Below, piece after piece: positions 52,506 to 61,986 of a stretch of 64,000 nt of DNA. A program made the translations under genes and the position numbers. The notes beneath the pieces are model-generated. The model saw nothing but the letters and a program-made list of their open reading frames with translations, was not told where the DNA came from and ran no database searches. Position 1 is the first letter of the stretch; each line of letters begins with the position of its first letter. The DNA is from Candidatus Hydrogenedentota bacterium (GTDB lineage: Bacteria; Hydrogenedentota; Hydrogenedentia; Hydrogenedentales; SLHB01), in NCBI GenBank assembly GCA_963745075.1, contig CAVUWV010000036.1, positions 1 through 64,000 of the forward strand, read 5' to 3'.

Positions 52506-52551
52506 TTACAGACTGTAAATACTTGACGGACAGCCTTCCGAATGGTACAAT
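52506..52551 (+). promoter_or_regulatory. Sigma70 promoter of the pilus operon with an upstream palindrome
   Basis: TTGACG (52523-52528), a 17-bp spacer ending in TGG, then TACAAT (52546-52551). Palindrome TTACAG-A-CTGTAA at 52506-52518. Confidence 0.7.
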
Positions 52552-52628: not shown

Positions 52629-54935
52629 ATGCTGAATTGGCGTAAAGACAAATCAGAAGAGGATTCTTTGGGGAAGGCCCAAGGGGCCGCCGCGCCTCCA
52701 GCATCACCATCATCCCAACCAAGTTCCGTTACCGGTCCCCCGCCATCGCGACCGCGCGTGAACGCGGGTCGGCTGGGCGAAATCCTGGTCAAAGAAGGGG
52801 TCGTCACACCGGGACAACTGGAGGAGGCGCTCCAGCAACAAAGCGGAAACGGAAGGTTCCTCGGCCAAGTCTTGGTCGAGTTGGGTTTCATCACCCAGGC
52901 GACCCTGGTGTCTTTCCTGGTCAAGCAGTGCAAGATTCCGCACATCAGCCTTGTTGACTACGTGGTCAGCGAAGATCTGTTCAAGCTGGTTCCGAAGGAA
53001 CTTTGCCTGAAACACAATTTGCTTCCCATTGATAAACTGGGGCGGATCCTGACCCTGGCCATGGTGGATCCTTTGGACGTGGAAGCGCTGGAAGAGGTCC
53101 GCAAGTCCTGTCCGGATATCAAAATCAAACCGATTCTTTGTGACTGGAACCACTTCGACAGCGTTGCGCGGAAGGTCTTTCACACGGAGGCGCGGGAAAT
53201 CCAGGAAGTCACCGCCGGGAGTTTCGGGCTTTCCGAACAGAAATCCCGCCCCAAGCCCAAAGAGCCCGACAAACAGGAACGGACCGCGGTGGATGCGGCG
53301 GTGGACGCCCTCGTCAAAGAGGCCGCAGCAACCGTCAAACGGGAGGCCAAGGCGCCTCCAAGAGCCGATGGCGGAAGCCAAAAGGCAGTCGAGTCCAGTC
53401 GGCCGGTGAAACCAGCACCGCCGTCTGCTCCGGCCACACCGGTTGAAGCCGCCGACAGTCAAGTGACGGATAGCATCCGGGCGGTGTTGCACGAGGCGTT
53501 GGCGCCCTTGCTGGCCGCCAGCGCGCGAACGGACGCACCGCCATGGGACGCCAAGGCGTTTCAATCCGGCATTCGCGATTCCCTGCAAGAGGTCATTGCA
53601 CCCCTGCTGGCCGAGCAACAGAAGCTGTCCGCAGCCCGGTCCTCGGACAGTACGCCGCCGCCGGACCCCAAAATGTGGGCGGGGCAAGTCAGCCAGGAGT
53701 TGCGGGACTCGGTATTGGCGGGGCTTGACACCATGCTTCGAGCGCAGCGCGACGAGTCGCCGCGCGGCGCGGCCATGCCGCAACCGGATGAACTGGCCCG
53801 GTTGATTCAAGGCAGCGTCGAGAAACCGCTGGCGGAGCTTGCCAGGGGCATCCACGATGCCTTGCAGGAGCGGGGGGAACAGGGTTCGAGCATCTCGCCG
53901 GAACTCTCGTCCCTTATTGGCGAGAACGTACGCAGTGTGGTCGCCGAACAAGAGAAGCGCTTGGCCGAGATGACCGAGGTGATGGTCAAGACGACGCAGG
54001 CCGCTGAAGCGGCCTTGAGAGCGATCCAGGAGGAGCGCGCACAGACCCAAGGAGCCGTCGAAAACACCACGCGTATCGCCAACCTCGAAATCTTTCCCGG
54101 TACCAGCGAAATTTCGACCGGACAATTGTCGGACGCCGGCGCGCTGGATAGTCCCGGCCTCGGCATGGAATCGGACGAGCGCGTCCGGGAAGCGGTGGAC
54201 AGCGACCGGATTTTGAACGGCTACACGTTTGACGAGTTTCTGGTCGGTCCCGCGAACACCTTCACGCTGAAAGCGGCGCGCGCGCTGGGCGAGCAACTGA
54301 CGCTGGATTTCAACCCCTTGTATGTCTGCGGAGACGAGGGTCTGGGAAAGACGCATCTGCTCAACGCGGTGGGTAATGCGTTGCTCGGGCGAAATCCCGA
54401 TTTGCGGGTGGCGTATGTGTCCACCAGCCACTTTGCCGGCGCCTTTGCGACGGCGCTGAAACACGACGAGCTTTCGGAGTTTCGGGATCGGTTTTGCCGG
54501 TGGGACGTGCTGCTGATTGACGACATCCAGTTCCTTGCCGGACGGACCGAGGCGCAGGAGGAGTTGTTTCACATTTTCAATGCCCTGGTCCATGAGGGCC
54601 GGGTTGTGGTTATCGCGGGTGACCGTTCCCCGGACAAGCTTCCGGAGTTCCAGAAGGGACTTGCGTCCCGGTTCTCGTCGGGGATCGTCACGAAATTACG
54701 GCCACCGGAGATGGATGTGCGTCTGGCCATTTTGAAGCGTTATGCCGAAATGCACCGGGTAGCCGTGCCGGAGGAGATCCTGTCGCTGGTCGCGACCCGG
54801 ATCGCCACGGACGTCCGCAAAATGCGGGGGGCGTTGCGAAAAGTCATCGCATATGCCAAACTTGTCGAGCAAGACATTACGCGCGAGATGGCTAACGAGG
54901 TACTGGATAGCCTCGGTGCCGATGACGCCGCGTAG
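52629..54935 (+). CDS. MshEN/T2SSE_N domain + low-complexity helical linker + DnaA/Hda-type AAA+ domain (no DnaA domain I or IV)
   Basis: Tandem MshEN motif RLGEILVKEGVVTPGQLEEALQQQ..FLGQVLVELGFIT..LVKQ and LAMVDPLD. DnaA domain III YTFDEFLVGPAN, NPLYVCGDEGLGKTHLL, LLIDDIQF, QEELFHIFN, DRSP, SRF, DVRKMRGAL. Confidence 0.88.
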   Translation: MLNWRKDKSEEDSLGKAQGAAAPPASPSSQPSSVTGPPPSRPRVNAGRLGEILVKEGVVTPGQLEEALQQQSGNGRFLGQVLVELGFITQATLVSFLVKQCKIPHISLVDYVVSEDLFKLVPKELCLKHNLLPIDKLGRILTLAMVDPLDVEALEEVRKSCPDIKIKPILCDWNHFDSVARKVFHTEAREIQEVTAGSFGLSEQKSRPKPKEPDKQERTAVDAAVDALVKEAAATVKREAKAPPRADGGSQKAVESSRPVKPAPPSAPATPVEAADSQVTDSIRAVLHEALAPLLAASARTDAPPWDAKAFQSGIRDSLQEVIAPLLAEQQKLSAARSSDSTPPPDPKMWAGQVSQELRDSVLAGLDTMLRAQRDESPRGAAMPQPDELARLIQGSVEKPLAELARGIHDALQERGEQGSSISPELSSLIGENVRSVVAEQEKRLAEMTEVMVKTTQAAEAALRAIQEERAQTQGAVENTTRIANLEIFPGTSEISTGQLSDAGALDSPGLGMESDERVREAVDSDRILNGYTFDEFLVGPANTFTLKAARALGEQLTLDFNPLYVCGDEGLGKTHLLNAVGNALLGRNPDLRVAYVSTSHFAGAFATALKHDELSEFRDRFCRWDVLLIDDIQFLAGRTEAQEELFHIFNALVHEGRVVVIAGDRSPDKLPEFQKGLASRFSSGIVTKLRPPEMDVRLAILKRYAEMHRVAVPEEILSLVATRIATDVRKMRGALRKVIAYAKLVEQDITREMANEVLDSLGADDAA

Positions 54936-54951: not shown

Positions 54952-56676
54952 GTGCCGCCTAAAATAGCCAAACGCCGTTTGGGTGATGTGTTGCTGGAGC
55001 AGAGTCTCGTTACGGAGGAGCAGCTCCACGAATGCATAAACCTTCAGCGCTCGTCGGGCCAGAGCCTGGCCTCGATCCTCGTTTCCAAGGGGTATCTGGG
55101 CGAAGAGGATCTGGTTGTTACGTTGAGCGAACAGTTGGGCATCCCCCACATCCGGGTGGCCAACTACAATATTCCCCAGGAGGTGCTGAACGAGGTGCCG
55201 GAGTCGCTCGCGCGTCAGTACCAGATGCTTCCGGTATCGGTCACGGGCGACGTCCTCACGTTGGCCATGGCCGACCCCCTCAACATTATGGCGCTGGACG
55301 ACCTCCGCATGCTGACCAGCTACGAAATCGAGCCAGTGGTAGCCGTCCAGTCCGAACTGAATGATGCCATTCATAAACACTACGGCGGTCAGACCAGCTC
55401 GAACCTCTTTGACGAACTCATCGGCGGCGAAAGCAAGCAGGATGGAATCGAGGTCGTCGACGAAGAGGAGCAGATCGAAGACATCGCGCACATGCAGGCC
55501 GAGGCGCAGGATGCGCCTGTCATCCGCCTGGCGAATCTCATTCTGCTGAAAGCCCTCGAGGCCCGCGCGAGCGATATTCACATCGAGCCCTTTGAGAAGG
55601 TTTTGCGTGTGCGGTATCGCGTTGATGGTGTGCTCGAAGAGACGAAGAACCCGCCGAAGAGCGTACAGTCGGCATTGATCTCACGCTTCAAAATCATGTC
55701 GGGCCTCGATATTGCCGAACACCGTCTGCCCCAGGACGGCCGGTTCCGTACCCGGTTCAAGGGGCACGACATCGATTTCCGCGTTTCGATTCTTCCGTGC
55801 TACCACGGCGAGAAGATCGTGATGCGCGTGCTCGACAAGAGCAGCCTGACGCTGGACCTCGATGGCTTGGGCTTTGCGGTTCAGCCGATGCAGGCATTTC
55901 AAGAGGCGCTGGCCCGGCCCTTCGGGATGATTTTGCTCACCGGACCCACCGGTAGTGGTAAGACCACGACATTGTACAGCGCGCTCCATAAACTCAATAG
56001 TCCGGATACGAACATCATCACGGTTGAAGATCCCATCGAATACGAATTGTTCGGCGTCAACCAGGTTCAGGTGCGGGCGGAAATCGGCCTTTCGTTTGCG
56101 GCCGGTTTGCGCAGTATCCTGCGCCAGGACCCGGACATTATCATGGTTGGTGAGATTCGTGACGAAGACACGGCCGATATCGCCGTGAAAGCGGCACTGA
56201 CCGGTCACTTGGTGTTGAGCACGTTGCACACCAACGATGCATCCAGCGTCTTTACCCGCCTAATCGATATGGGAATGGAACCGTTCCTGGTGCAGTCCTC
56301 CGTGGCCTTGGCGGCGGCCCAGCGCCTGTTGCGCCGCGTGTGCCCCGACTGCAAAGAGAGCATTCGCGTGCCGCCGGATGTGTTGGAGCGAATTCAGTAC
56401 ACGGCGTTGCCCGACGCGCCAGCCCCGAATTTCGTGCGTGGCCGCGGCTGCGGCAAATGCAAAGACACGGGCTATCGAGGCCGTCTCGCGGTCATCGAAG
56501 CCATGACCAACTATCCCGAGTTGCAGGATTTGATCATGACGCGGAAGCCGGCCAGCGACATCAAGCGGGTGGCCGTGGATTGCGGCATGCGGACCCTGCG
56601 GCAAAATGCCCTCGAAAAAGCGGCTGAGGGCGTTACCACGATTGAGGAAGTCCTGCGCGTATCCGCGATGGACTAG
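54952..56676 (+). CDS. pilB: Type IV pilus assembly ATPase PilB (GspE/PulE family)
   Basis: MshEN-like RLGDVLL, ASDIHIEP, LDIAEHRLPQDGR, GPTGSGKTTT, LRQDPDIIMVGEIRD, and a CPDC...GCGKC zinc motif. Confidence 0.88.
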   Translation: MPPKIAKRRLGDVLLEQSLVTEEQLHECINLQRSSGQSLASILVSKGYLGEEDLVVTLSEQLGIPHIRVANYNIPQEVLNEVPESLARQYQMLPVSVTGDVLTLAMADPLNIMALDDLRMLTSYEIEPVVAVQSELNDAIHKHYGGQTSSNLFDELIGGESKQDGIEVVDEEEQIEDIAHMQAEAQDAPVIRLANLILLKALEARASDIHIEPFEKVLRVRYRVDGVLEETKNPPKSVQSALISRFKIMSGLDIAEHRLPQDGRFRTRFKGHDIDFRVSILPCYHGEKIVMRVLDKSSLTLDLDGLGFAVQPMQAFQEALARPFGMILLTGPTGSGKTTTLYSALHKLNSPDTNIITVEDPIEYELFGVNQVQVRAEIGLSFAAGLRSILRQDPDIIMVGEIRDEDTADIAVKAALTGHLVLSTLHTNDASSVFTRLIDMGMEPFLVQSSVALAAAQRLLRRVCPDCKESIRVPPDVLERIQYTALPDAPAPNFVRGRGCGKCKDTGYRGRLAVIEAMTNYPELQDLIMTRKPASDIKRVAVDCGMRTLRQNALEKAAEGVTTIEEVLRVSAMD

Positions 56677-56701
56677 CACGATCGCGAACCGAGGGGGAAT
56701 C

Positions 56702-57775
56702 ATGGTCGATATCAGCATCAAAGAATTGCTCACCAAAACCATCGAAAAAGGCGCCAGCGATCTGCATATCGTCGTTGGTTCGCCGCCCATCATTCGGCTT
56801 AACGGCAACCTCGAGGCCATGCACGAATACCCGGTCTTCAAGCCGGACGAGACGCAGGAAATCATCTATAGCGTCATGAGCGAAGAACAGATCGCGATGT
56901 TTGAAACGGACCGCGAGTGCGACCTCTCGTTCGGGATTGAAGGACTTAGCCGGTTCCGTCTCAACGTCTACCGCGACCGGGGATCGGTGGTGGCGGCGTT
57001 TCGCGCGATCCCCTTTGAAATCCGGGGCTTTGAAGAATTGGGGCTGCCCCGGGTCGTCGCGGATTTTGCCTACCGCCCGCTGGGGCTTATCCTGGTTTGC
57101 GGCCCGACGGGTAGCGGAAAATCGACCACGCTCGCCTCGATCATCGATAAAATCAATCGCGAACGTCCCGTGCACATCATAACCATCGAGGATCCCATCG
57201 AATATCTGCACAATCACAATGTGGCTACAATCAACCAGCGGGAAGTCAACGCGGACACCAAGTCCTTTGGCGCAGCGTTGAAACGTGTGCTTCGTCAGGA
57301 TCCCGACGTGATTCTCATTGGTGAGATGCGCGATCCGGAGACAATCGCCGCTGCTTTGACCGTGGCGGAGACGGGGCACCTCGCCTTTGCCACGCTGCAC
57401 ACCAACGACGCGCTCCAGTCGATTAACCGTATCGTGGATGTGTTTCCCTCGAACCAGCAGGATCAGATTCGCACGCAGTTGTCGTTCGTGCTGGAAGGCA
57501 TCGCAGTGCAGCAGCTCATCCCGCGCGCGGACGGTATGGGGCGGGCCCTCGCCCTGGAGGTGATGCTACCCAATACGGCTATCCGTTCGCTCATCCGCGA
57601 GCAGAAGCTTCAGCAGATTCCGTCCATGATCGAGATTGGCGCGGGCGAAGGCATGATGACCATGAACCAGTCCCTCTACCGGCTCATGCGGCGCAACGTG
57701 ATTACGAGCGACATGGCGTTCAAGCGCAGTGCCGATCCGGAAGGCCTGCGGCGCCTGATGGAAAAGGGGCTGTGA
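56702..57775 (+). CDS. pilT: Type IV pilus retraction ATPase PilT
   Basis: GASDLH, GPTGSGKSTT, TIEDPIE, LRQDPD, AETGHL, AIRSLIRE. Confidence 0.92.
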   Translation: MVDISIKELLTKTIEKGASDLHIVVGSPPIIRLNGNLEAMHEYPVFKPDETQEIIYSVMSEEQIAMFETDRECDLSFGIEGLSRFRLNVYRDRGSVVAAFRAIPFEIRGFEELGLPRVVADFAYRPLGLILVCGPTGSGKSTTLASIIDKINRERPVHIITIEDPIEYLHNHNVATINQREVNADTKSFGAALKRVLRQDPDVILIGEMRDPETIAAALTVAETGHLAFATLHTNDALQSINRIVDVFPSNQQDQIRTQLSFVLEGIAVQQLIPRADGMGRALALEVMLPNTAIRSLIREQKLQQIPSMIEIGAGEGMMTMNQSLYRLMRRNVITSDMAFKRSADPEGLRRLMEKGL

Positions 57776-59400
57776 CCACTTCCGGCCTTCCCATTCCCGT
57801 CCGGCCATCGCTGAGCGCGTTCGGTCCGTGGCAGTTCGTCATCGGAAGCGTCCGGGTGGCGGCTGTCTGCGTCATCGCGGCGGGCACGCTTTCTTTTGGT
57901 GAATACGCGGGGAGTGAGTCGATCTATCTTTCCGCGTTCTACCTTTTCGGGCTGGTGTGCAGCGCCGGGTACCTGCTGGCGCTGCGGCGGGTGCACTACG
58001 TGACGCCCTTGTTCACCTGGGCGCAGGTGCTTGTCGATCTCGGCGTCGTCGCGGCGGCCGTCAGTTTCACCGGCGGTCTTGGCAGTCTGTACACCTTTCT
58101 GTTCGTCATCGTGGTTCTGGAAGCGGGCATACTGCTCGGACTGATCCAGGGATTTATCTTCGCAACGCTGTGCACGGGAATTATGGGGGTTCTGGTGCTC
58201 ATGCGGACAGTCCCGGCCGAGGGCCTGCCGATTGCAGAGCAATGGTACAACCAGGATCGCTATACCCTTTGGTACGGCTACCTCATCCAGGTGCTTGCTT
58301 ACTATCTTACCGCATCGATCAGCGGGTATTGGAATCAGCAACTGCACCGTCTGCAGCAATTCCAGCGGGAAATCCTGGACAACATGAACAATGGATTTCT
58401 GATCGCCGATCTCGCCGGCCGGATCACGGTGGTGAACAAGGCGGCGGAACGCATTCTCAATTTGCGGGAAGACAAAGCCATCGGCAAGCCGGTGCAGGAC
58501 ATCCTGCGCGTCGCGTCGGGCGAAGAATGCCCGGTGATTACCGCGTTGCGGTCGGAGCGTGATTTTACACGCTACGAATACACCGGTCTTGTCAATCCGG
58601 GCAAGACCATGCTTCTCGGCTTGAGCACCAGCCGCATCTACGACTGGCGCGGGCGCATGACGGGGATCATCGCGTCCTTCAGCGATCTGACGGAACTGGA
58701 GCAGATGCGGCAAGAACTCAAGCGGCAGGATCGCCTATCCATCGTAGGCGAACTGGCCGCCGGTTTGGCCCACGAGATCCGGAACCCGGTGGCAGCTATC
58801 CGCGGCGCAGTAGACGAACTTACCACGAGCCTGGATCACCCGAAAGTCGCGGAGAAACTACTCTCCATCGCGCTACGGGAATCGGACCAACTCAACGCGA
58901 TCGTCTCCGATTTTCTTGACTTTGCACGAAAACCCCGTATGCGTCGCGACATATTCGACGTGCGCGGGCTCATAGATGAAGTAACCGATTTCATGCAACG
59001 GAAATGCGAGGGGAACACGGAATTCTCGATCGAAACAGAGATTCCTGATGCGATCTGCCCTGTGTCCGGCGACCGGTCTCAGATCCGTCAAGTCTTTGTG
59101 AATCTCGCGAAGAACGCCGCGGAAGCCATGGACGAGCGGGGGCGTCTCCTCATCGCGGTTGTCCTGGGACCGTCCTCCGTCGAGGTCCGTTTCGATGACG
59201 AGGGACCGGGTATCGATCCCGACAAGGTTGCGCGCATATTCGAGCCTTTCTATACTACGAAGGACACCGGTGTTGGCATGGGGTTGGCTATCTGTCTTCG
59301 GATAGTCTCTGCCCACGACGGCACCATCCGGGCCGCGTCGCGCGAAGGAGGCGGCGCGACGATGAGCGTGAGGCTCCCCAGAGCGGGAACGGAGGAATAA
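57772..59400 (+). CDS. pilS: PilS-like membrane sensor histidine kinase (6 TM, PAS, HisKA, HATPase)
   Basis: TM bundle with FTGG..S.YTFLF, AHEIRNP H-box, NLAKNA, DEGPG, FEPFYTTK..GVGMGL, and the gene context. Confidence 0.75.
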   Translation: MTTSGLPIPVRPSLSAFGPWQFVIGSVRVAAVCVIAAGTLSFGEYAGSESIYLSAFYLFGLVCSAGYLLALRRVHYVTPLFTWAQVLVDLGVVAAAVSFTGGLGSLYTFLFVIVVLEAGILLGLIQGFIFATLCTGIMGVLVLMRTVPAEGLPIAEQWYNQDRYTLWYGYLIQVLAYYLTASISGYWNQQLHRLQQFQREILDNMNNGFLIADLAGRITVVNKAAERILNLREDKAIGKPVQDILRVASGEECPVITALRSERDFTRYEYTGLVNPGKTMLLGLSTSRIYDWRGRMTGIIASFSDLTELEQMRQELKRQDRLSIVGELAAGLAHEIRNPVAAIRGAVDELTTSLDHPKVAEKLLSIALRESDQLNAIVSDFLDFARKPRMRRDIFDVRGLIDEVTDFMQRKCEGNTEFSIETEIPDAICPVSGDRSQIRQVFVNLAKNAAEAMDERGRLLIAVVLGPSSVEVRFDDEGPGIDPDKVARIFEPFYTTKDTGVGMGLAICLRIVSAHDGTIRAASREGGGATMSVRLPRAGTEE

Positions 59401-59406
59401 CACGGA

Positions 59407-60798
59407 GTGGCTGTCCAACACCGAATCCTCGTGGTAGACGACGAGTCGGGCATGCGCGAACTGCTGGAAATCGTGCTCGCCAAAGACGGGTACGACGTGG
59501 TAACGGCTTCCAACGTCGATGATGCCCAGAGACTTCTCGAGGACCAGAGTTTTGACGTGGTGCTGACCGATCTCCGCATGGGCAGCGACCGCGACGCCGG
59601 GATGACGCTTCTCACGTGGTTGAATGAAAACAGCCCGTCCACACCATCGATCATGATGACGGCGTACGGTTCCGTGGAAACGGCCATCGAGGCCATGAAG
59701 CGGGGCGCGGCCGACTACATCATGAAGCCGTTCAAGAATGAGGAAGTCCGCATTCTTATTCAGCGGGCGATCGAGCAGACGCGAATCAAACGCGAAAACA
59801 TCGCGTTGCGAAAAGAACAGGCCAAGCGCGGCAACCTCGACAACATCATCGGCAAAAGCAAGCCCACCGAAGAATTGCGCGAGATGATTCGCCGCGTTGC
59901 GGATTTACCCAGCACGGTCGCCATCCACGGCGAGAGCGGAACCGGCAAGGAACTCGTTGCGCGGGGCATCCATCAATTGAGCAGCCGCACCGGCAAACCG
60001 TTCGTGGCCGTCAATTGCGGCGGATTCCCCGAGAATCTGTTGGAAAGCGAGCTGTTTGGCCACAAGAAGGGGTCGTTCACGGGCGCCTATGAAGACAAAG
60101 AAGGGCTGTTTGTGGTAGCCGATGGCGGTTCACTGTTCCTCGACGAGATTGGCGAAATGCCCATGGCCCTGCAAGTGAAACTGCTCCGCGTGTTGGACAA
60201 CAGTATCGTCCATCCAGTCGGCGGCACGGTGGGAAAGAAGGTCGACGTCCGGATTATTTCCGCGACGAACCGCGACCTCGCCGCCATGGCTCAGGAAGGT
60301 TCATTTCGGGAAGACTTGTACTATCGGCTCAACGTCATCCCCATAACCGTGCCGCCCTTGCGGGAGCGCGCCGATGACATCCCTCTGTTGATCCGGCATT
60401 TTGTGCGGGTCCACGGCGAGAAGATGAATCGCGGTGAATTGCAGGTTTCCAACGACGTCGAGGATCTATTGGGGGGCTATCCCTGGCCGGGGAATGTGCG
60501 CGAGCTGACCAATCTGCTCGAGCGGGCCGTGGCGCTGTGCCGGGGCGACGTTATCGAGATTGGCGACCTTCCCCCGAATATCCGCGATCACGTGGCTACT
60601 CCGGGAGAAACCGCCAAGAAATTGCCTCAAGGCGGTCTCGATCTGGAGGAGTACGTGGCCGAAATCGAAACCAGCCTCATCAAACAGGCGCTCCAAAGTA
60701 CCAAGTATTCCCAGAAACGGGCCGCCAATCTTCTGGGGCTCACCGCGCGGTCGCTACGCTATCGGTTGAAGAAGTACGGGCTGGCCGACGACGACTGA
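59407..60798 (+). CDS. pilR: PilR-like sigma54-dependent response regulator
   Basis: REC domain (ILVVDDE, TDLRM), GESGTGKE, GSFTGA, LFLDEIGE, WPGNVREL, and a Fis-type HTH. Confidence 0.78.
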   Translation: MAVQHRILVVDDESGMRELLEIVLAKDGYDVVTASNVDDAQRLLEDQSFDVVLTDLRMGSDRDAGMTLLTWLNENSPSTPSIMMTAYGSVETAIEAMKRGAADYIMKPFKNEEVRILIQRAIEQTRIKRENIALRKEQAKRGNLDNIIGKSKPTEELREMIRRVADLPSTVAIHGESGTGKELVARGIHQLSSRTGKPFVAVNCGGFPENLLESELFGHKKGSFTGAYEDKEGLFVVADGGSLFLDEIGEMPMALQVKLLRVLDNSIVHPVGGTVGKKVDVRIISATNRDLAAMAQEGSFREDLYYRLNVIPITVPPLRERADDIPLLIRHFVRVHGEKMNRGELQVSNDVEDLLGGYPWPGNVRELTNLLERAVALCRGDVIEIGDLPPNIRDHVATPGETAKKLPQGGLDLEEYVAEIETSLIKQALQSTKYSQKRAANLLGLTARSLRYRLKKYGLADDD

Positions 60799-60822
60799 TA
60801 GACTCGCGTCGTTCGTTGCAGA

Positions 60823-61395
60823 TTAGGCCATCCGTTGTTTGCGCCGTTCGATAAAAGCATTGAGCACGGCAATGCGCATCCGCCCGCCCATCTTTTCCCC
60901 GGTGTAGCCATCCAGCACGGCCAAGTCGATCTTCTGGCCGAACCGGCGAAAGTAGTAGACCCAGATTGGCGTGTGATAAGTGCAGTGTTCTTCGATCCGG
61001 ACCGCACTCGGTTTGGGACCCCGCTTCCGGAGGCAGTAACGAATTAGTCCGTCGCGCGCGTGTTGTTCCGCTTCCGAAACGTCGAGAACCGGATCGAACG
61101 TCTCGCCCTCCGGCGCGCGTTCTTCCAGAACGTCCAGTCGCTCAAAGAGTGCGAACCCGCCGAAACTAGCATCAACGGAAACCCAGAGGCTGCTTTCCAT
61201 TTTTCCTCGGGTAAGGACCATTCGAAATGCATAGACCGGCATCCACACCAGTTCCACTGAGGAGGGGAGTCCGCTTTCGGAAGTTCTGACTGGTCGCGGA
61301 CGCAGGAGACCAAATAAATTGCGGGCGCGGGGCCTCCAGAAGACCCGCGCGGCGTCCGTGAGTTCTAGCCGCGGCGGGAGGACAAGGCTGCTCAC
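60823..61395 (-). CDS. Hypothetical protein
   Basis: GTG start overlaps the upstream stop (GTGA). About 190 aa with LVWMPVY, PIWVYY and VLDGYTGE motifs. Confidence 0.65.
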   Translation of the reverse strand: MSSLVLPPRLELTDAARVFWRPRARNLFGLLRPRPVRTSESGLPSSVELVWMPVYAFRMVLTRGKMESSLWVSVDASFGGFALFERLDVLEERAPEGETFDPVLDVSEAEQHARDGLIRYCLRKRGPKPSAVRIEEHCTYHTPIWVYYFRRFGQKIDLAVLDGYTGEKMGGRMRIAVLNAFIERRKQRMA

Positions 61396-61649
61396 GAAAC
61401 GATTGTCTTGGACCGCTTGAATAGTCTCCATCCGTACGCGATGGCGCCCGAGCCGAGGACGCCGAGGATGAGGCCGGCAATGACGTTCACCACGGCGGCG
61501 TGGGTTCTGGTTGCCCAAAACGTTGCGATTAATACGGGGACGGCCAAGGCGAACACGAAGAGTCCGACGGCCATATACGTTTCGCCGTCGCGCTTCATCA
61601 TTTCGGCCCGAGTATGTCGCTCGGCTTTCTTATTAATCGTACTGGTCAT
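61392..61649 (-). CDS. Small 2-TM membrane protein
   Basis: GAGGA RBS and two hydrophobic helices; in the operon behind the symporter. Confidence 0.7.
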   Translation of the reverse strand: MTSTINKKAERHTRAEMMKRDGETYMAVGLFVFALAVPVLIATFWATRTHAAVVNVIAGLILGVLGSGAIAYGWRLFKRSKTIVS

Positions 61650-61653
61650 GGGG

Positions 61654-61986
61654 CTATCCTCGTCCGTAGAAATAGAAATACACAAACACGTGTGGGAGCA
61701 TGGAAACAACGGTCCAGATGCGAAGGTCAGTCCAGATCGATTCTTCACGGCGTCCCAGATTTACATAGGACTTGCCAAGGTAGAACCACACCCACAACAT
61801 CGTACCCAGAAAGAAACCGATGGCGGCAATGGTTGCCCACGGTTGGTAGATAGGGGCCAGGAATGAGTTGATGGGACCGAAGAACTTGATCAGAATTGGA
61901 TAGCAGAAGGTGGTGCAAAATGCATCCACCATTTGCGCGATTTGAGCGTATAGTGTGACGAGTGCTTCACGGACGGGAGCAAACAT
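61654..61986 (-). CDS. Small membrane protein
   Basis: TGATG coupling to the symporter stop; hydrophobic helices and a WTDLRIW motif. Confidence 0.7.
   Translation of the reverse strand: MFAPVREALVTLYAQIAQMVDAFCTTFCYPILIKFFGPINSFLAPIYQPWATIAAIGFFLGTMLWVWFYLGKSYVNLGRREESIWTDLRIWTVVSMLPHVFVYFYFYGRG

What the first reader, a model, noticed from the sequence alone, without database searches (positions are those of the whole stretch)
52629..54935. MshEN (c-di-GMP receptor) fused to a DnaA-type AAA+ domain heads the type IV pilus operon: a candidate link from surface sensing to replication initiation
Seen: one uninterrupted ORF carries a tandem MshEN motif (from ~52770) and the rest of a PilB/GspE N-terminal domain. 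A ~300-aa Pro/Ala-rich helical linker follows, and then (from ~54222) a DnaA domain III with intact Walker A (GDEGLGKT), Walker B (LLIDDIQF), sensor I (DR), arginine finger (SRF) and sensor II Arg (DVRKMRGAL; DnaA typically has NVRELEGAL). The protein stops where DnaA's DNA-binding domain IV would begin and has no domain I. It is the first gene after a strong promoter and ends 16 bp before pilB. Established: MshEN domains bind c-di-GMP and dock pilus ATPases on the platform. Hda, a DnaA domain III homolog without domain IV, inactivates DnaA by supplying an arginine finger in trans. Inference: this could be a c-di-GMP-gated or pilus-localised DnaA modulator (Hda-like, or a co-oligomerising decoy) that couples attachment to the cell cycle. 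Alternatively it is a DnaA-derived scaffold ATPase recruited to the pilus machine. I do not know of a characterised protein with this architecture.
Basis: partly seen in the sequence, partly recalled or inferred. Interest (0 to 1): 0.9.

Follow-up and report, generated by a model that had tools for sequence, protein, structure and literature searches.

The report
Pilus-linked c-di-GMP sensor with DnaA ATPase
This gene encodes an unstudied protein, conserved across the uncultured phylum Hydrogenedentota and always placed just before the pilus motor gene pilB, that joins a cyclic-di-GMP-sensing head to the ATPase core of the replication initiator DnaA without DnaA's DNA-binding parts, so it more likely regulates the pilus motor than DNA replication.

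Summary
Window 52629-54935 (+) is one open frame of 768 aa. It has an MshEN head with the c-di-GMP motif, a helical middle region and a DnaA domain III AAA+ tail. Domains I and IV are absent.

It is not a misassembly. All 56 of 56 scanned relatives share the architecture. The gene lies directly upstream of pilB in 20 of 20 sampled genomes of the phylum and in 62 of 62 evaluable named loci.

The replication reading gained no support. The gene travels with pilB-pilT-pilS-pilR. Two lineages keep the head upstream of pilB but have lost the AAA+ tail. No clamp-binding motif occurs. The AAA+ clade is separate from the phylum's own DnaA and from Hda.

A complex model supports, but does not show, contact between the head and PilB's N-domain: score 0.62 against 0.00 for the best control.

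New here: a 20-residue helical repeat in the "linker", four invariant cysteines in the head, and a GGDEF paralogue carrying the same head.

The scan met this family twice before in other genomes. No paper describing it was found.

The parts
52523..52551 (+). sigma-70-like promoter match, TTGACG-17-TACAAT with an upstream TG
   Evidence: 10 of 12 positions match. This is a consensus match only; function is not shown.
52629..54935 (+). Whole ORF, 768 aa: MshEN head, helical repeat region and DnaA-III AAA+ tail
   Evidence: All 56 of 56 scanned relatives have the same architecture.
52629..52769 (+). N-terminal stretch, aa 1-47, low complexity and predicted disordered
   Evidence: pLDDT below 50 for aa 1-45.
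52770..52928 (+). Tandem 24-residue c-di-GMP-binding motifs (MshEN_N), aa 48-100
   Evidence: NF053729 scores 65.2 bits against a cut-off of 38; motif 1 is conserved, and motif 2 is conserved except F77 where MshE has Arg. The motif definition was read in passages of PMC5013675.
52929..53195 (+). MshEN_C (GspE/PilB N1-type) domain, aa 101-189, with four invariant or near-invariant cysteines (C101, C126, C161, C171); predicted PilB-contact surface
   Evidence: Cys in 104, 104, 98 and 104 of 104 rows; interface residues 91-170. PilB's own head lacks these cysteines.
53196..54185 (+). Middle region, aa 190-519: long helices separated by Pro-rich disordered spacers
   Evidence: helices at 217-235, 272-299, 308-336, 347-375, 386-416 and 424-474, with pLDDT 50-70.
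53463..53519 (+). Helical repeat copy 1 (aa 279-297)
   Evidence: 27.5 bits.
53562..53618 (+). Helical repeat copy 2 (aa 312-330)
   Evidence: 24.2 bits.
53688..53747 (+). Helical repeat copy 3 (aa 354-373)
   Evidence: 14.5 bits.
53796..53849 (+). Helical repeat copy 4 (aa 390-407)
   Evidence: 11.0 bits.
53916..53972 (+). Helical repeat copy 5 (aa 430-448)
   Evidence: 17.4 bits.
54186..54932 (+). DnaA domain III-type AAA+ module (aa 520-768); the protein ends where domain IV would begin
   Evidence: B. subtilis DnaA 8bv3/8btg about 205 bits against Hda about 44. TM 0.91-0.92 to DnaA domain III; pLDDT about 96.
54330..54356 (+). Walker A, aa 568-576 (GDEGLGKTH)
   Evidence: G568 in 0.99 of 141 family rows; G571, G573, K574 and H576 in 1.00; T575 in 0.77.
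54519..54524 (+). Walker B acidic pair D631-D632
   Evidence: 1.00 in 141 rows.
54666..54671 (+). Box VII S680-R681, aligned with E. coli DnaA R285 (its arginine-finger role is recalled)
   Evidence: 1.00 in 141 rows.
54816..54818 (+). Sensor II arginine R730, aligned with E. coli R334 (role recalled)
   Evidence: 1.00 in 141 rows.
54952..56676 (+). pilB (type IVa pilus extension ATPase) with its own MshEN head and c-di-GMP motif
   Evidence: TIGR02538 scores 660.8 bits (cut-off 675.65), T2SSE 461.9 bits, NF053729 52.8 bits.
56606..57775 (+). pilT-family retraction ATPase; the true start is probably downstream of 56606, because relatives align from about residue 30
   Evidence: TIGR01420 scores 467.9 bits (cut-off 319.1)..
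57772..59400 (+). PilS-like PAS histidine kinase
59407..60798 (+). PilR-like sigma-54-dependent response regulator

Best explanation
The protein is an accessory of the PilB-driven type IV pilus motor, not a replication protein.

Shown:
- It is a conserved three-part protein of Hydrogenedentota: an MshEN head with the c-di-GMP motif, a variable run of helical repeats, and a DnaA domain III AAA+ tail with an intact ATP site and arginine finger.
- It is encoded 16 nt upstream of one particular pilB.

Inferred mechanism:
1. The head senses c-di-GMP, as MshE and PilB heads do.
2. The head docks on the homologous N-terminal domain of PilB, MshEN_C against MshEN_C.
3. The tail binds ATP and self-assembles head-to-tail through its arginine finger, as DnaA domain III does. 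This gathers or holds several PilB N-domains on flexible tethers.
4. PilB assembly, placement or activity thereby comes under joint control of c-di-GMP and ATP.

Whether the effect is activating (scaffold or assembly factor) or inhibitory (sequestration) cannot be told from sequence.
For: Synteny:
- The gene lies directly upstream of pilB on the same strand in 20 of 20 sampled genomes spanning 12 GTDB families of the phylum.
- Among 80 named loci, 66 carry the fusion and 62 of those 66 have pilB next. In the other 4 the contig ends too soon.
- The gap to pilB is 16 nt, with no terminator-like site in it.

Architecture:
- It is uniform: 56 of 56 have MshEN, the c-di-GMP motif and Bac_DnaA, and 0 of 56 have Bac_DnaA_C.
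- The head is the most conserved part, with 22-27 invariant columns.
- Two genomes of one family, in different genera, keep head plus middle region upstream of pilB-pilT-pilS-pilR but lack the tail (L081/G055 and L101/G076).
- The same 4-Cys head subtype is also fused to PAS-GGDEF in 5 loci. This fits a docking and c-di-GMP module that is reused.

Complex model of PilB with head aa 46-190:
- Score 0.62; best of 3 controls 0.00.
- The mark was reached by 116 of 157 solved complexes and 2 of 215 mismatched pairs, counts that hold only roughly because my own alignments were used.
- The runs agree in at least 82% of contacts, and the partner's pLDDT is at least 80.
- The interface is PilB 52-132 against head 91-170.

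PilB contact residues:
- They are more conserved than the rest of the N-domain where a partner exists: 0.86 against 0.77 for n=20, and 0.93-0.97 with a head-only partner.
- They are less conserved in the one partner-less genus: 0.66 against 0.72-0.74. This rests on a single lineage and is weak.

Tail:
- Walker A and B, box VII S-R and the sensor II Arg are present in 0.99-1.00 of 141 rows.
- The two-helix insert between strands 2 and 3 is kept.
- The fold matches DnaA domain III at TM 0.91-0.92.
Against: - No experiment exists. c-di-GMP binding, ATPase activity, oligomerisation and PilB contact are all predictions.
- The complex pass may reflect likeness to solved N-terminal domains of PilB-type ATPases that crystallise with several chains (for example 6ejf and 7lko, listed). 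I could not inspect their packing.
- The invariant head residues at the predicted interface are also core motifs of the MshEN_C fold (IPHI, LTLAMxDPL). PilB shares them, so their conservation need not reflect this contact.
- The second c-di-GMP half-motif starts with Phe instead of Arg in 104 of 104 members.
- The gene is not universal. 11 of 81 genomes of the phylum showed no fusion-type match in the listing. In 2 of them pilB-pilT stands with no accessory gene upstream.
- The helical repeat was not detected at the same threshold in 3 head-only proteins, so 'head plus repeats' is not a proven conserved unit.
- An intact arginine finger would serve hetero-oligomerisation with DnaA just as well.
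Confidence: 0.5

Rival explanations
1. DnaA modulator. The domain III tail caps or joins DnaA oligomers, or supplies its arginine finger in trans like Hda. c-di-GMP or pilus state would then gate replication initiation.
For: - The tail is much closer to DnaA than to any other family: TIGR00362 scores 279 bits, PDB DnaA about 205 bits, and TM is 0.91-0.92.
- It is 39-44% identical to the phylum's own DnaA domain III.
- The arginine finger, sensor II and Walker motifs are invariant.
- It lacks domain IV, as Hda does.
- A sister relationship to the phylum's DnaA is only marginally disfavoured: p-AU 0.049, with the grouping named after the tree was seen.
Against: - It is never next to dnaA, dnaN or other replication genes in the 20 and 62 loci examined; it is always next to pilB.
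- No clamp-binding motif occurs in 0 of 121 relatives with three patterns, against shuffled means of 0.15, 3.9 and 6.05 (the patterns are recalled).
- The Hda model scores below its cut-off, 102.7 against 194.8, and Hda structures fit worse, at TM 0.67-0.77 and rmsd 3.8-5.3 A.
- Positions that are uniform in the 13 canonical DnaA rows differ family-wide. E. coli R227 becomes C (0.84), W288 becomes S (0.70), N332 becomes D (1.00), E335 becomes K (0.86) and T342 becomes K (1.00).
- The tail groups (SH-aLRT 95) with other domain-IV-less DnaA-III modules fused to TPR or other MshEN forms, and not inside the canonical DnaA clade.
- Some lineages lost the tail while the head stayed at pilB.
Confidence: 0.12
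2. A c-di-GMP-controlled ATPase with another, unknown client. Adjacency to pilB would reflect only shared regulation, for example the same promoter and the same c-di-GMP regime, without physical contact with the pilus motor.
For: - The window's genome carries 16 MshEN-bearing frames, and MshEN heads occur on many output domains (passages of PMC5013675). The head may therefore be a generic sensor.
- DnaA-III modules are fused to many unrelated domains, including DUF835, TPR and zinc ribbons, and also occur in tandem.
- The complex pass may come from memory of solved structures (caveat).
Against: - Adjacency of 62 of 62 and 20 of 20, with a 16-nt gap, across a whole phylum is tighter than co-regulation usually needs.
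- The head-only gene is retained at the same spot.
- The complex model scores 0.62 against controls of 0.00.
- The pattern of PilB contact-residue conservation points the same way (weak).
Confidence: 0.2
3. A single-stranded DNA handler for pilus-dependent DNA uptake. The DnaA-III tail would bind incoming ssDNA in an ATP-dependent spiral, as DnaA domain III does at the origin, and would be tethered to the pilus motor by the head.
For: - The two-helix insert of the initiator clade, which lines the ssDNA path in DnaA (recalled), is kept without gaps.
- The model matches the ssDNA-bound DnaA structure 3r8f (rank 7).
- Type IV pili mediate DNA uptake in many bacteria (established knowledge).
Against: - At positions aligned with E. 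coli V211 and R245 (ssDNA-contact roles recalled), the family has mostly Ala (0.45) and Glu (0.58). The phylum's own DnaA also lacks the Arg there, so this point is weak.
- No competence genes were seen beside it in the window.
- Nothing else points to DNA.
Confidence: 0.08

Closest known systems
DnaA, chromosomal replication initiator (domain III, AAA+ initiator clade)
   Same: The tail aligns over the whole of domain III without gaps and is 38% identical to E. coli DnaA and 39-44% to the phylum's own DnaA. Walker A and B, sensor I Asp, the box VII Ser-Arg, the sensor II Arg and the two-helix insert are kept. The fold matches at TM 0.91-0.92.
   Different: There is no domain I, no domain IV HTH and no membrane or linker region. 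It scores below the DnaA equivalog cut-off. Substitutions occur family-wide at positions uniform in canonical DnaA. It forms a separate clade. It is encoded with pilus genes rather than at the origin.
Hda / HdaA (DnaA domain III homologue that inactivates DnaA)
   Same: It is a stand-alone domain III without domain IV, and it retains the arginine finger.
   Different: It scores far below the Hda model cut-off, 102.7 against 194.8. Sequence and fold matches are weaker than to DnaA. It has a full GxxGxGKT P-loop, whereas E. coli Hda has GAGRS at the aligned place. No clamp-binding motif occurs in 0 of 121. It carries a 520-aa N-terminal extension.
MshE / PilB / PilF N-terminal MshEN c-di-GMP receptor domain (V. 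cholerae MshE, PDB 5HTL)
   Same: The head matches MshE, PilF and PilB N-termini by sequence (E 1e-18 to 1e-22) and by fold (5htl). It passes the c-di-GMP motif model. It is 31% identical to the head of the neighbouring PilB.
   Different: The output domain is a DnaA-type AAA+ rather than a GspE/PilB secretion ATPase; there is no T2SSE hit. The second half-motif starts with Phe. Four invariant cysteines are present that PilB lacks.
c-di-GMP adaptors of PilB such as FimX-PilZ-PilB of Xanthomonas
   Same: Functionally analogous to the idea proposed here: a separate c-di-GMP-binding protein that attaches to PilB and tunes pilus extension.
   Different: The domains are unrelated (EAL/GGDEF and PilZ there), and no AAA+ module is involved.

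Membership tests
DnaA (TIGR00362 equivalog) | Whole-protein score over the curated cut-off | tested here: not met
   279.2 bits against a cut-off of 343.9
DnaA (TIGR00362 equivalog) | Domain IV helix-turn-helix (Bac_DnaA_C) for DnaA-box binding | tested here: not met
   No hit in the window protein. 0 of 56 relatives have it. The protein ends at DnaA model position 339 of 437.
DnaA (TIGR00362 equivalog) | Domain I (DnaA_N) | tested here: not met
   No PF11638 hit, while canonical DnaAs in the same scan show one
DnaA (TIGR00362 equivalog) | Domain III AAA+ with Walker A/B, sensor I, box VII Arg, sensor II Arg and the initiator two-helix insert | tested here: met
Hda (TIGR03420) | Whole-protein score over the curated cut-off | tested here: not met
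   102.7 bits against 194.8
Hda (TIGR03420) | N-terminal beta-clamp-binding motif | tested here: not met
   0 of 121 relatives match any of three patterns. The patterns are recalled, not taken from a call.
Hda (TIGR03420) | Stimulates hydrolysis of DnaA-bound ATP | not testable with these tools
   Needs a biochemical assay
MshEN c-di-GMP receptor domain | PF05157 and the c-di-GMP motif model NF053729 over their cut-offs | tested here: met
   56.3 against 23.1, and 65.2 against 38. 56 of 56 relatives match both models at E <= 0.001.
MshEN c-di-GMP receptor domain | Two tandem 24-residue motifs RLGxxhhxxGhhxxxxLxxxLxxQ joined by a 5-residue spacer (PMC5013675, passages read) | tested here: inconclusive
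   Motif 1 fits fully in the window protein. The spacer is 5 residues. Motif 2 fits except at position 1, which is Phe in 104 of 104.
MshEN c-di-GMP receptor domain | Measured c-di-GMP binding | not testable with these tools
   Needs ITC, MST or DRaCALA
PilB/GspE secretion ATPase | T2SSE ATPase domain (PF00437) | tested here: not met
   No hit in the fusion, while the neighbouring PilB scores 461.9 bits

The most novel reading that the evidence does not exclude
The DnaA-III tail still recognises the cell's own DnaA. The protein would then be tethered to PilB by its head and loaded with c-di-GMP, and it would cap or seed DnaA oligomers. That would couple pilus-motor or surface state physically to replication initiation, a kind of coupling that has not been described. 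The intact arginine finger and nucleotide pocket, and the only marginal rejection of a sister relationship to the phylum's DnaA (p-AU 0.049), leave this open.
Probability: 0.1. Interest if true: 0.9.

Novelty: new variant of a known kind. Interest (0 to 1): 0.6.

Why it matters
It would show that the ATP-dependent self-assembly module of the replication initiator has been taken out of replication and wired to a c-di-GMP sensor at a pilus motor. That adds a new output class to MshEN receptors and a new kind of PilB accessory.

It also shows that domain-IV-less DnaA modules are a widespread building block: tandem forms, and fusions to DUF835, TPR, zinc ribbons and MshEN. Pipelines currently label them 'chromosomal replication initiator protein DnaA'. 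That label misleads annotation and origin prediction in metagenome-assembled genomes.

If the minority reading held, it would be a direct protein link between pili and replication.

Tried and rejected
- Misassembly or a hidden frameshift: rejected. The contiguous head-to-tail frame recurs in 66 named loci from independent assemblies and in 120 of 120 best database relatives. No domain IV is found in any frame of the genome.
- Canonical dnaA in the own genome: not found with Pfam, with NCBIfam, or with the same-genus dnaA DNA. Given 89.68% completeness and its presence in 77 of 81 genomes of the phylum, I read this as an assembly gap and not as absence. That remains unproven.
- PilB presence or absence as a correlate: uninformative. 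81 of 81 genomes have 5-12 PilB/GspE-family matches.
- Context of the short-linker MshEN-DnaA-III form P0208: the metagenome scan was captured by a generic DnaA box pattern. 78 of 80 loci were canonical DnaAs, and 0 of 80 had an MshEN head or pilB. The question stays open.
- Names for the non-canonical relatives: only 5 of the 15 listed cluster members carry a name, and most names are automatic 'DnaA' labels.
- Helical repeat in head-only and GGDEF variants: 0 hits in 3 and in 5 proteins at the threshold that gave 350 hits in the fusions, and 0 hits in 7 control proteins. At a lax threshold there were only marginal partial matches.
- BLAST self-comparison of the middle region printed no off-diagonal alignment. 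The repeat was found only with a profile.
- Sequencing runs: no RNA holder is listed. The 8 DNA runs hold small shares of 0.06-0.16. I did not lay reads.
- ORFs after pilR (60537-60854 and 61408-61866) do not look like a pilin.
- AU test of a phylum-internal duplication: borderline (p-AU 0.049, lnL difference 30.25, group named after the tree was seen). It is not used as firm evidence either way.
Full report
OBSERVATION

Window 52629-54935 (+) is a single open frame of 768 aa ending in TAG.
- Pfam finds MshEN (aa 102-189) and Bac_DnaA (aa 531-688). It finds neither Bac_DnaA_C nor DnaA_N.
- NCBIfam finds the MshE-type c-di-GMP motif (aa 48-100, 65.2 bits against a cut-off of 38). It gives a partial DnaA match covering model positions 70-339 of 437 (279.2 bits, below the 343.9 cut-off). 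Hda scores lower, at 102.7 against 194.8.
- The gene stops 16 nt before the GTG of pilB.
- A sigma-70-like match (TTGACG-17-TACAAT with TG, 10 of 12) lies at 52523-52551. It is a consensus match, not proof of a promoter.
- Downstream follow pilB, a pilT-family gene, a PilS-like kinase and a PilR-like sigma-54 regulator. Upstream lies a SurA-like PPIase.

IS IT REAL AND CONSERVED?

The word-indexed protein search returned 330 relatives at E <= 0.001 among the 8000 candidates scored. The best 120 listed all carry PF05157 plus PF00308. Source names include 'DnaA/Hda family protein', 'ATP-binding protein' and JGI's 'chromosomal replication initiator protein DnaA'.

Of 56 members scanned one by one (56 of the 104 aligned, cut down for a size limit), 56 have MshEN, 56 have Bac_DnaA, 56 have the c-di-GMP motif and 0 have Bac_DnaA_C.

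A scan of one genome per species found 150 relatives. The 80 best carry titles that are nearly all Candidatus Hydrogenedentota, -entes or -entales. The exceptions are these:
- Some are titled 'uncultured Nitrospirales/Nitrospiraceae'. At least three of these appear to be the contigs that the genome search places in the window's own order: each has the same length as G010:C7, G015:C222 or G007:C18, and its range falls inside the stretch fetched from that contig.
- One is titled 'FCB group'. NCBI taxonomy places Hydrogenedentota inside that clade.
- One is titled Rhodothermaeota and one Bathyarchaeia. These may be binning errors.

The fusion is therefore a real family, essentially restricted to one phylum, and not a misassembly.

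SYNTENY

In 20 of 20 genomes sampled across 12 GTDB families of the phylum, the gene lies immediately upstream of pilB on the same strand. In most, pilT, pilS and pilR follow.

Among the 80 named loci (classified further):
- 66 carry both head and tail. Of these, 62 have pilB directly downstream. In the other 4 (L047, L051, L100, L103) the contig ends too soon to tell.
- 14 lack the tail. In 6 of them the contig breaks off after the head. 3 are head-plus-middle-only proteins (L075, L081, L101). 5 are a different protein with the same head fused to PAS and GGDEF.

L081 and L101 still sit directly upstream of pilB-pilT-pilS-pilR. They are the contigs of G055 and G076, two of the 11 of 81 genomes of the phylum that showed no fusion-type DnaA match in the listing. 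That count of 70 of 81 is my reading of the listed rows; 80 weaker matches were not listed.

Of the other genomes without a fusion-type match:
- G048 and G029 (one genus) have pilB-pilT with no such gene upstream.
- In G018 and G060 the best PilB-family match is another paralogue, about 52% identical over the ATPase part, with nothing like the fusion upstream.
- In G004 and G052 pilB sits at a contig edge.

PilB/GspE-family ATPases number 5-12 per genome in 81 of 81 genomes. The fusion is tied to one particular pilB, not to the family.

CANONICAL DnaA

The window's assembly (36 contigs, 89.68% complete) has no Bac_DnaA_C match and no DnaA match over the cut-off. It has no DNA match to the same-genus dnaA either.

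In the phylum, 77 of 81 genomes have a canonical DnaA over the cut-off, including both same-genus genomes. In one of those it lies at a contig edge.

I read the absence as an assembly gap. A separate dnaA in this very genome is thus unconfirmed.

THE AAA+ TAIL

By sequence it matches solved DnaA domain III far better than Hda:
- B. subtilis 8bv3/8btg: about 205 bits
- T. maritima 2z4r: 193 bits
- A. aeolicus: 115 bits
- Hda: about 44 bits

The AlphaFold model used a 56-row alignment and has mean pLDDT 73.7, with about 96 over aa 520-765. It superposes on DnaA domain III at TM 0.91-0.92 and rmsd 1.6-2.0 A. It superposes on Hda at TM 0.67-0.77 and rmsd 3.8-5.3 A.

I aligned 141 family rows with 13 canonical DnaAs (12 from the phylum plus E. 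coli).
- Present in 0.99-1.00 of rows: Walker A (G568, G571, G573, K574, H576), Walker B D631-D632, Q643, E645, box VII S680-R681, P693, R698 and sensor II R730.
- The sensor I Asp holds in 0.75 of rows.
- The segment between strands 2 and 3 aligns without gaps and is modelled as two helices, 599-611 and 615-623. This is the initiator-specific insert; that name and its link to open spiral assemblies are recalled knowledge.
- Family-specific departures from the canonical rows: E. coli T174 becomes V or E, E204 becomes S, V211 becomes A, R227 becomes C (0.84), W288 becomes S (0.70), N332 becomes D (1.00), E335 becomes K (0.86) and T342 becomes K (1.00).
- In the window protein, R281 becomes G; R holds there in 0.54 of the family.
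- The functional labels of the E. coli residues are recalled, not tested here.

An invariant trans-acting arginine argues that the tail works as an oligomer. It does not say with whom.

WHERE THE TAIL COMES FROM

An exhaustive HMMER search with aa 520-768 found 19436 proteins at E <= 0.001 and 4542 at E <= 1e-30. The best 150 include many fusion-family members and canonical DnaAs. They also include other domain-IV-less architectures, seen in 30 proteins scanned:
- MshEN directly joined to DnaA-III (P0208)
- MshEN with two DnaA-III modules (P0122, P0123, P0221)
- tandem DnaA-III proteins
- DnaA-III plus DUF835
- TPR plus DnaA-III
- DnaA-III plus zinc ribbons

In a quick IQ-TREE tree of 77 domain III segments:
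- The Hydrogenedentota fusions form one clade (23 rows, SH-aLRT 100).
- The phylum's canonical DnaAs form another (12 rows, 99), nested among canonical DnaAs.
- The fusion clade sits in a 30-row group (95) with the other MshEN-linked forms, the TPR form and an N-terminal DnaA-III protein.
- Hda is a long branch elsewhere.

I then dropped 7 long-branch rows: P0221 d1 and d2, the coiled-coil paralogue, P0130 d1, P0176 d1 and d2, and FUS_L037. An AU test of 'fusions plus the phylum's DnaA as one clade' gave lnL -30.25 and p 0.049. That is borderline, and the group was named after the tree was seen.

The tail is thus an old, separate lineage of orphan DnaA-III modules. A phylum-internal origin is not firmly excluded.

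THE HEAD

It is the most conserved part of the protein.

c-di-GMP motif:
- Motif 1 fits the published 24-residue c-di-GMP motif fully in the window protein. I read the motif definition in the abstract and passages of PMC5013675.
- Motif 1 is well kept in the family: L49 95, G50 100, L53 103 and L64 98 of 104. R48 holds in 77 and Q71 in 69.
- The spacer is 5 residues.
- Motif 2 fits, except that its first position is Phe in 104 of 104.

Other features of the head:
- It is 31% identical to the head of the neighbouring PilB.
- Unlike PilB, it has four cysteines, C101, C126, C161 and C171, present in 104, 104, 98 and 104 of 104 rows.
- The same four cysteines and flanking motifs occur in the PAS-GGDEF paralogue. 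Its GGDEF domain scores 113-140 bits.
- The window's own genome has 16 MshEN-bearing frames. None other than the fusion exceeds 38% identity to this head.

THE MIDDLE REGION

It is not a plain linker. A profile seeded on five segments of the window protein found 104 matches in 120 family middle regions and 0 in shuffled copies. The refined profile found 350 against 0.
- 103 of 120 proteins have two or more copies, and the maximum is 13.
- Copy number correlates with length (r = 0.50).
- The consensus is IGESVRGALQEALAPLLAAQ.
- The window has copies at aa 279-297, 312-330, 354-373, 390-407 and 430-448.
- Each copy lies inside one long modelled helix of moderate confidence, and the helices are separated by disordered Pro-rich spacers.

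The shuffles control for composition only, and the refined profile was built from the family itself. At the same threshold the repeat was not found in 3 head-only proteins, 5 GGDEF paralogues or 7 control proteins. Only marginal partial matches appear at a lax threshold.

No conserved motif other than the repeats stands out in this region.

No clamp-binding motif occurs anywhere in 121 relatives (patterns recalled).

DOES THE HEAD TOUCH PilB?

I sent one complex job: PilB (alignment of 21 orthologues, A3) with head aa 46-190 (from A2) as the partner.
- The model supports binding; it does not show it.
- Score 0.62; best of 3 controls 0.00.
- The mark was reached by 116 of 157 solved complexes and 2 of 215 mismatched pairs. 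These counts hold only roughly because my own alignments were used.
- The runs agree in at least 82% of contacts, and the partner's pLDDT is at least 80.
- The interface pairs the two homologous MshEN_C domains almost symmetrically, PilB 52-132 with head 91-170. PilB 63-68 and 71-75 lie against head 102-107 and 110-114.

Caveats:
- N-terminal domains of PilB-type ATPases have been solved with several chains per entry. The pass may therefore come from likeness to a solved packing that I could not inspect.
- The contacting motifs are also core to the fold and are shared by PilB.

A small evolutionary check points the same way but rests on one lineage:

| PilB orthologues | Identity at the 29 contact residues | Identity at the other 76 N-domain residues |
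|---|---|---|
| 20 with a fusion partner | 0.86 | 0.77 |
| 2 with a head-only partner | 0.93-0.97 | 0.83-0.87 |
| 2 partner-less (one genus) | 0.66 | 0.72-0.74 |

HOW IT MOST LIKELY WORKS

Shown: the architecture, its conservation, the intact ATP site and arginine finger, the c-di-GMP motif, and the invariant placement before pilB.

Inferred:
1. The head binds c-di-GMP.
2. The head docks on PilB's N-domain.
3. The tail assembles with ATP.
4. PilB assembly, localisation or activity is thereby controlled.

The GGDEF paralogue with the same head suggests that this head subtype is a reusable PilB-docking module. In that protein it could deliver c-di-GMP locally. This is inference only.

I put about 0.5 on 'pilus-motor accessory acting through PilB'. 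Within that, the specific scaffold mechanism is less certain.

Rivals:
- A c-di-GMP-controlled ATPase with another client, merely co-regulated with pilB: 0.2.
- An ssDNA handler for pilus-dependent DNA uptake: 0.08.

COMPARISON WITH WHAT IS KNOWN, AND NOVELTY

The protein works like a DnaA domain III in its ATP site and probable self-assembly, and like an MshE or PilB head in sensing. It is not a member of DnaA, Hda or PilB by their defining features (see the membership table).

Five full-text searches found no paper that describes an MshEN-DnaA protein or a DnaA-like protein at a pilus locus:
- 'MshEN' + 'DnaA'
- 'MshEN domain' + 'domain architectures'
- 'Hydrogenedentes' + 'type IV pili'
- 'DnaA' + 'PilB' + 'c-di-GMP'
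- 'DnaA-like' + 'domain III' + 'type IV pilus'

The single MshEN + DnaA hit (PMC9944927) has one mention of each term, and I saw it only in the search listing. [quoted passage not shown] I did not open its supplementary tables, which may list architectures.

The scan itself noted this family twice before in other genomes, with the same reading (e1-947318, e1-1394580). I re-derived the shared points independently here.

I class it as a new variant of a known kind: an MshEN-type c-di-GMP receptor with a new output module, or equally an orphan DnaA-III module with a new targeting head. Interest is 0.6. The family is real, conserved, mis-annotated and mechanistically intriguing. The exciting replication link is unsupported, and the host phylum is uncultured.

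Noticed in passing
G000:C8:302136-302684 and onward (L002 1498-3453, + strand; outside the window): This is a second DnaA-III-like paralogue. It has an N-terminal AAA+ (Bac_DnaA 58.6 bits, Walker A GDEGCGKTH) followed by a very long coiled-coil tail of more than 650 aa, and no domain IV. Most genomes of the phylum show three DnaA-type matches (canonical, fusion and a weaker third), which may be this protein.
   Followed up: partly
L106 5914-7533, L112 5905-7530, L113 5956-7530, L117 2207-3817, L119 5818-7536: Other Hydrogenedentota carry a paralogue with the same four-cysteine MshEN head fused to PAS and an intact GGDEF diguanylate cyclase. It is not next to pilB. It may be a c-di-GMP source that uses the same docking head.
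   Followed up: partly
L081 (=G055:C17), L101 (=G076:C64), L075: These are head-plus-middle-only variants with no AAA+ tail. In L081 and L101 the gene still lies directly upstream of pilB-pilT-pilS-pilR, so the tail has been lost at least once within one GTDB family.
   Followed up: partly
Own genome, 16 places listed (e.g. C10:379733, C23:58750, C23:59395, C12:45424, C27:176225, C18:41479): The MshEN domain is unusually expanded, with 16 MshEN-bearing frames of 198-782 aa in one genome. I did not examine their partner domains.
   Followed up: no
Proteins P0122-P0244: There is a wide set of domain-IV-less DnaA-III architectures in metagenomes: tandem DnaA-III, DnaA-III plus DUF835, TPR plus DnaA-III, DnaA-III plus zinc ribbon, and MshEN plus two DnaA-III modules in proteins of nearly 2000 aa. 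Where named, most are labelled 'chromosomal replication initiator protein DnaA'.
   Followed up: partly
window 56606-56676: The longest pilT frame overlaps the end of pilB by 71 nt. Relatives align only from about residue 30 of that frame, so the real pilT start is probably downstream of pilB's stop.
   Followed up: no
Own assembly G000 (whole genome): No canonical dnaA and no DnaA domain IV can be found in the assembly (89.68% complete), although both same-genus genomes have dnaA. This is probably an assembly or binning gap.
   Followed up: yes
L041, L051, L057, L059, L060, L073, L078, L082, L092, L095, L098, L101, L104, L109 (record titles): Many public records titled 'uncultured Nitrospiraceae/Nitrospirales bacterium' carry this Hydrogenedentota-type locus. 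At least three appear to be contigs that the GTDB-based genome search places in the window's own order (same length and matching range), so the titles look like mislabels.
   Followed up: partly
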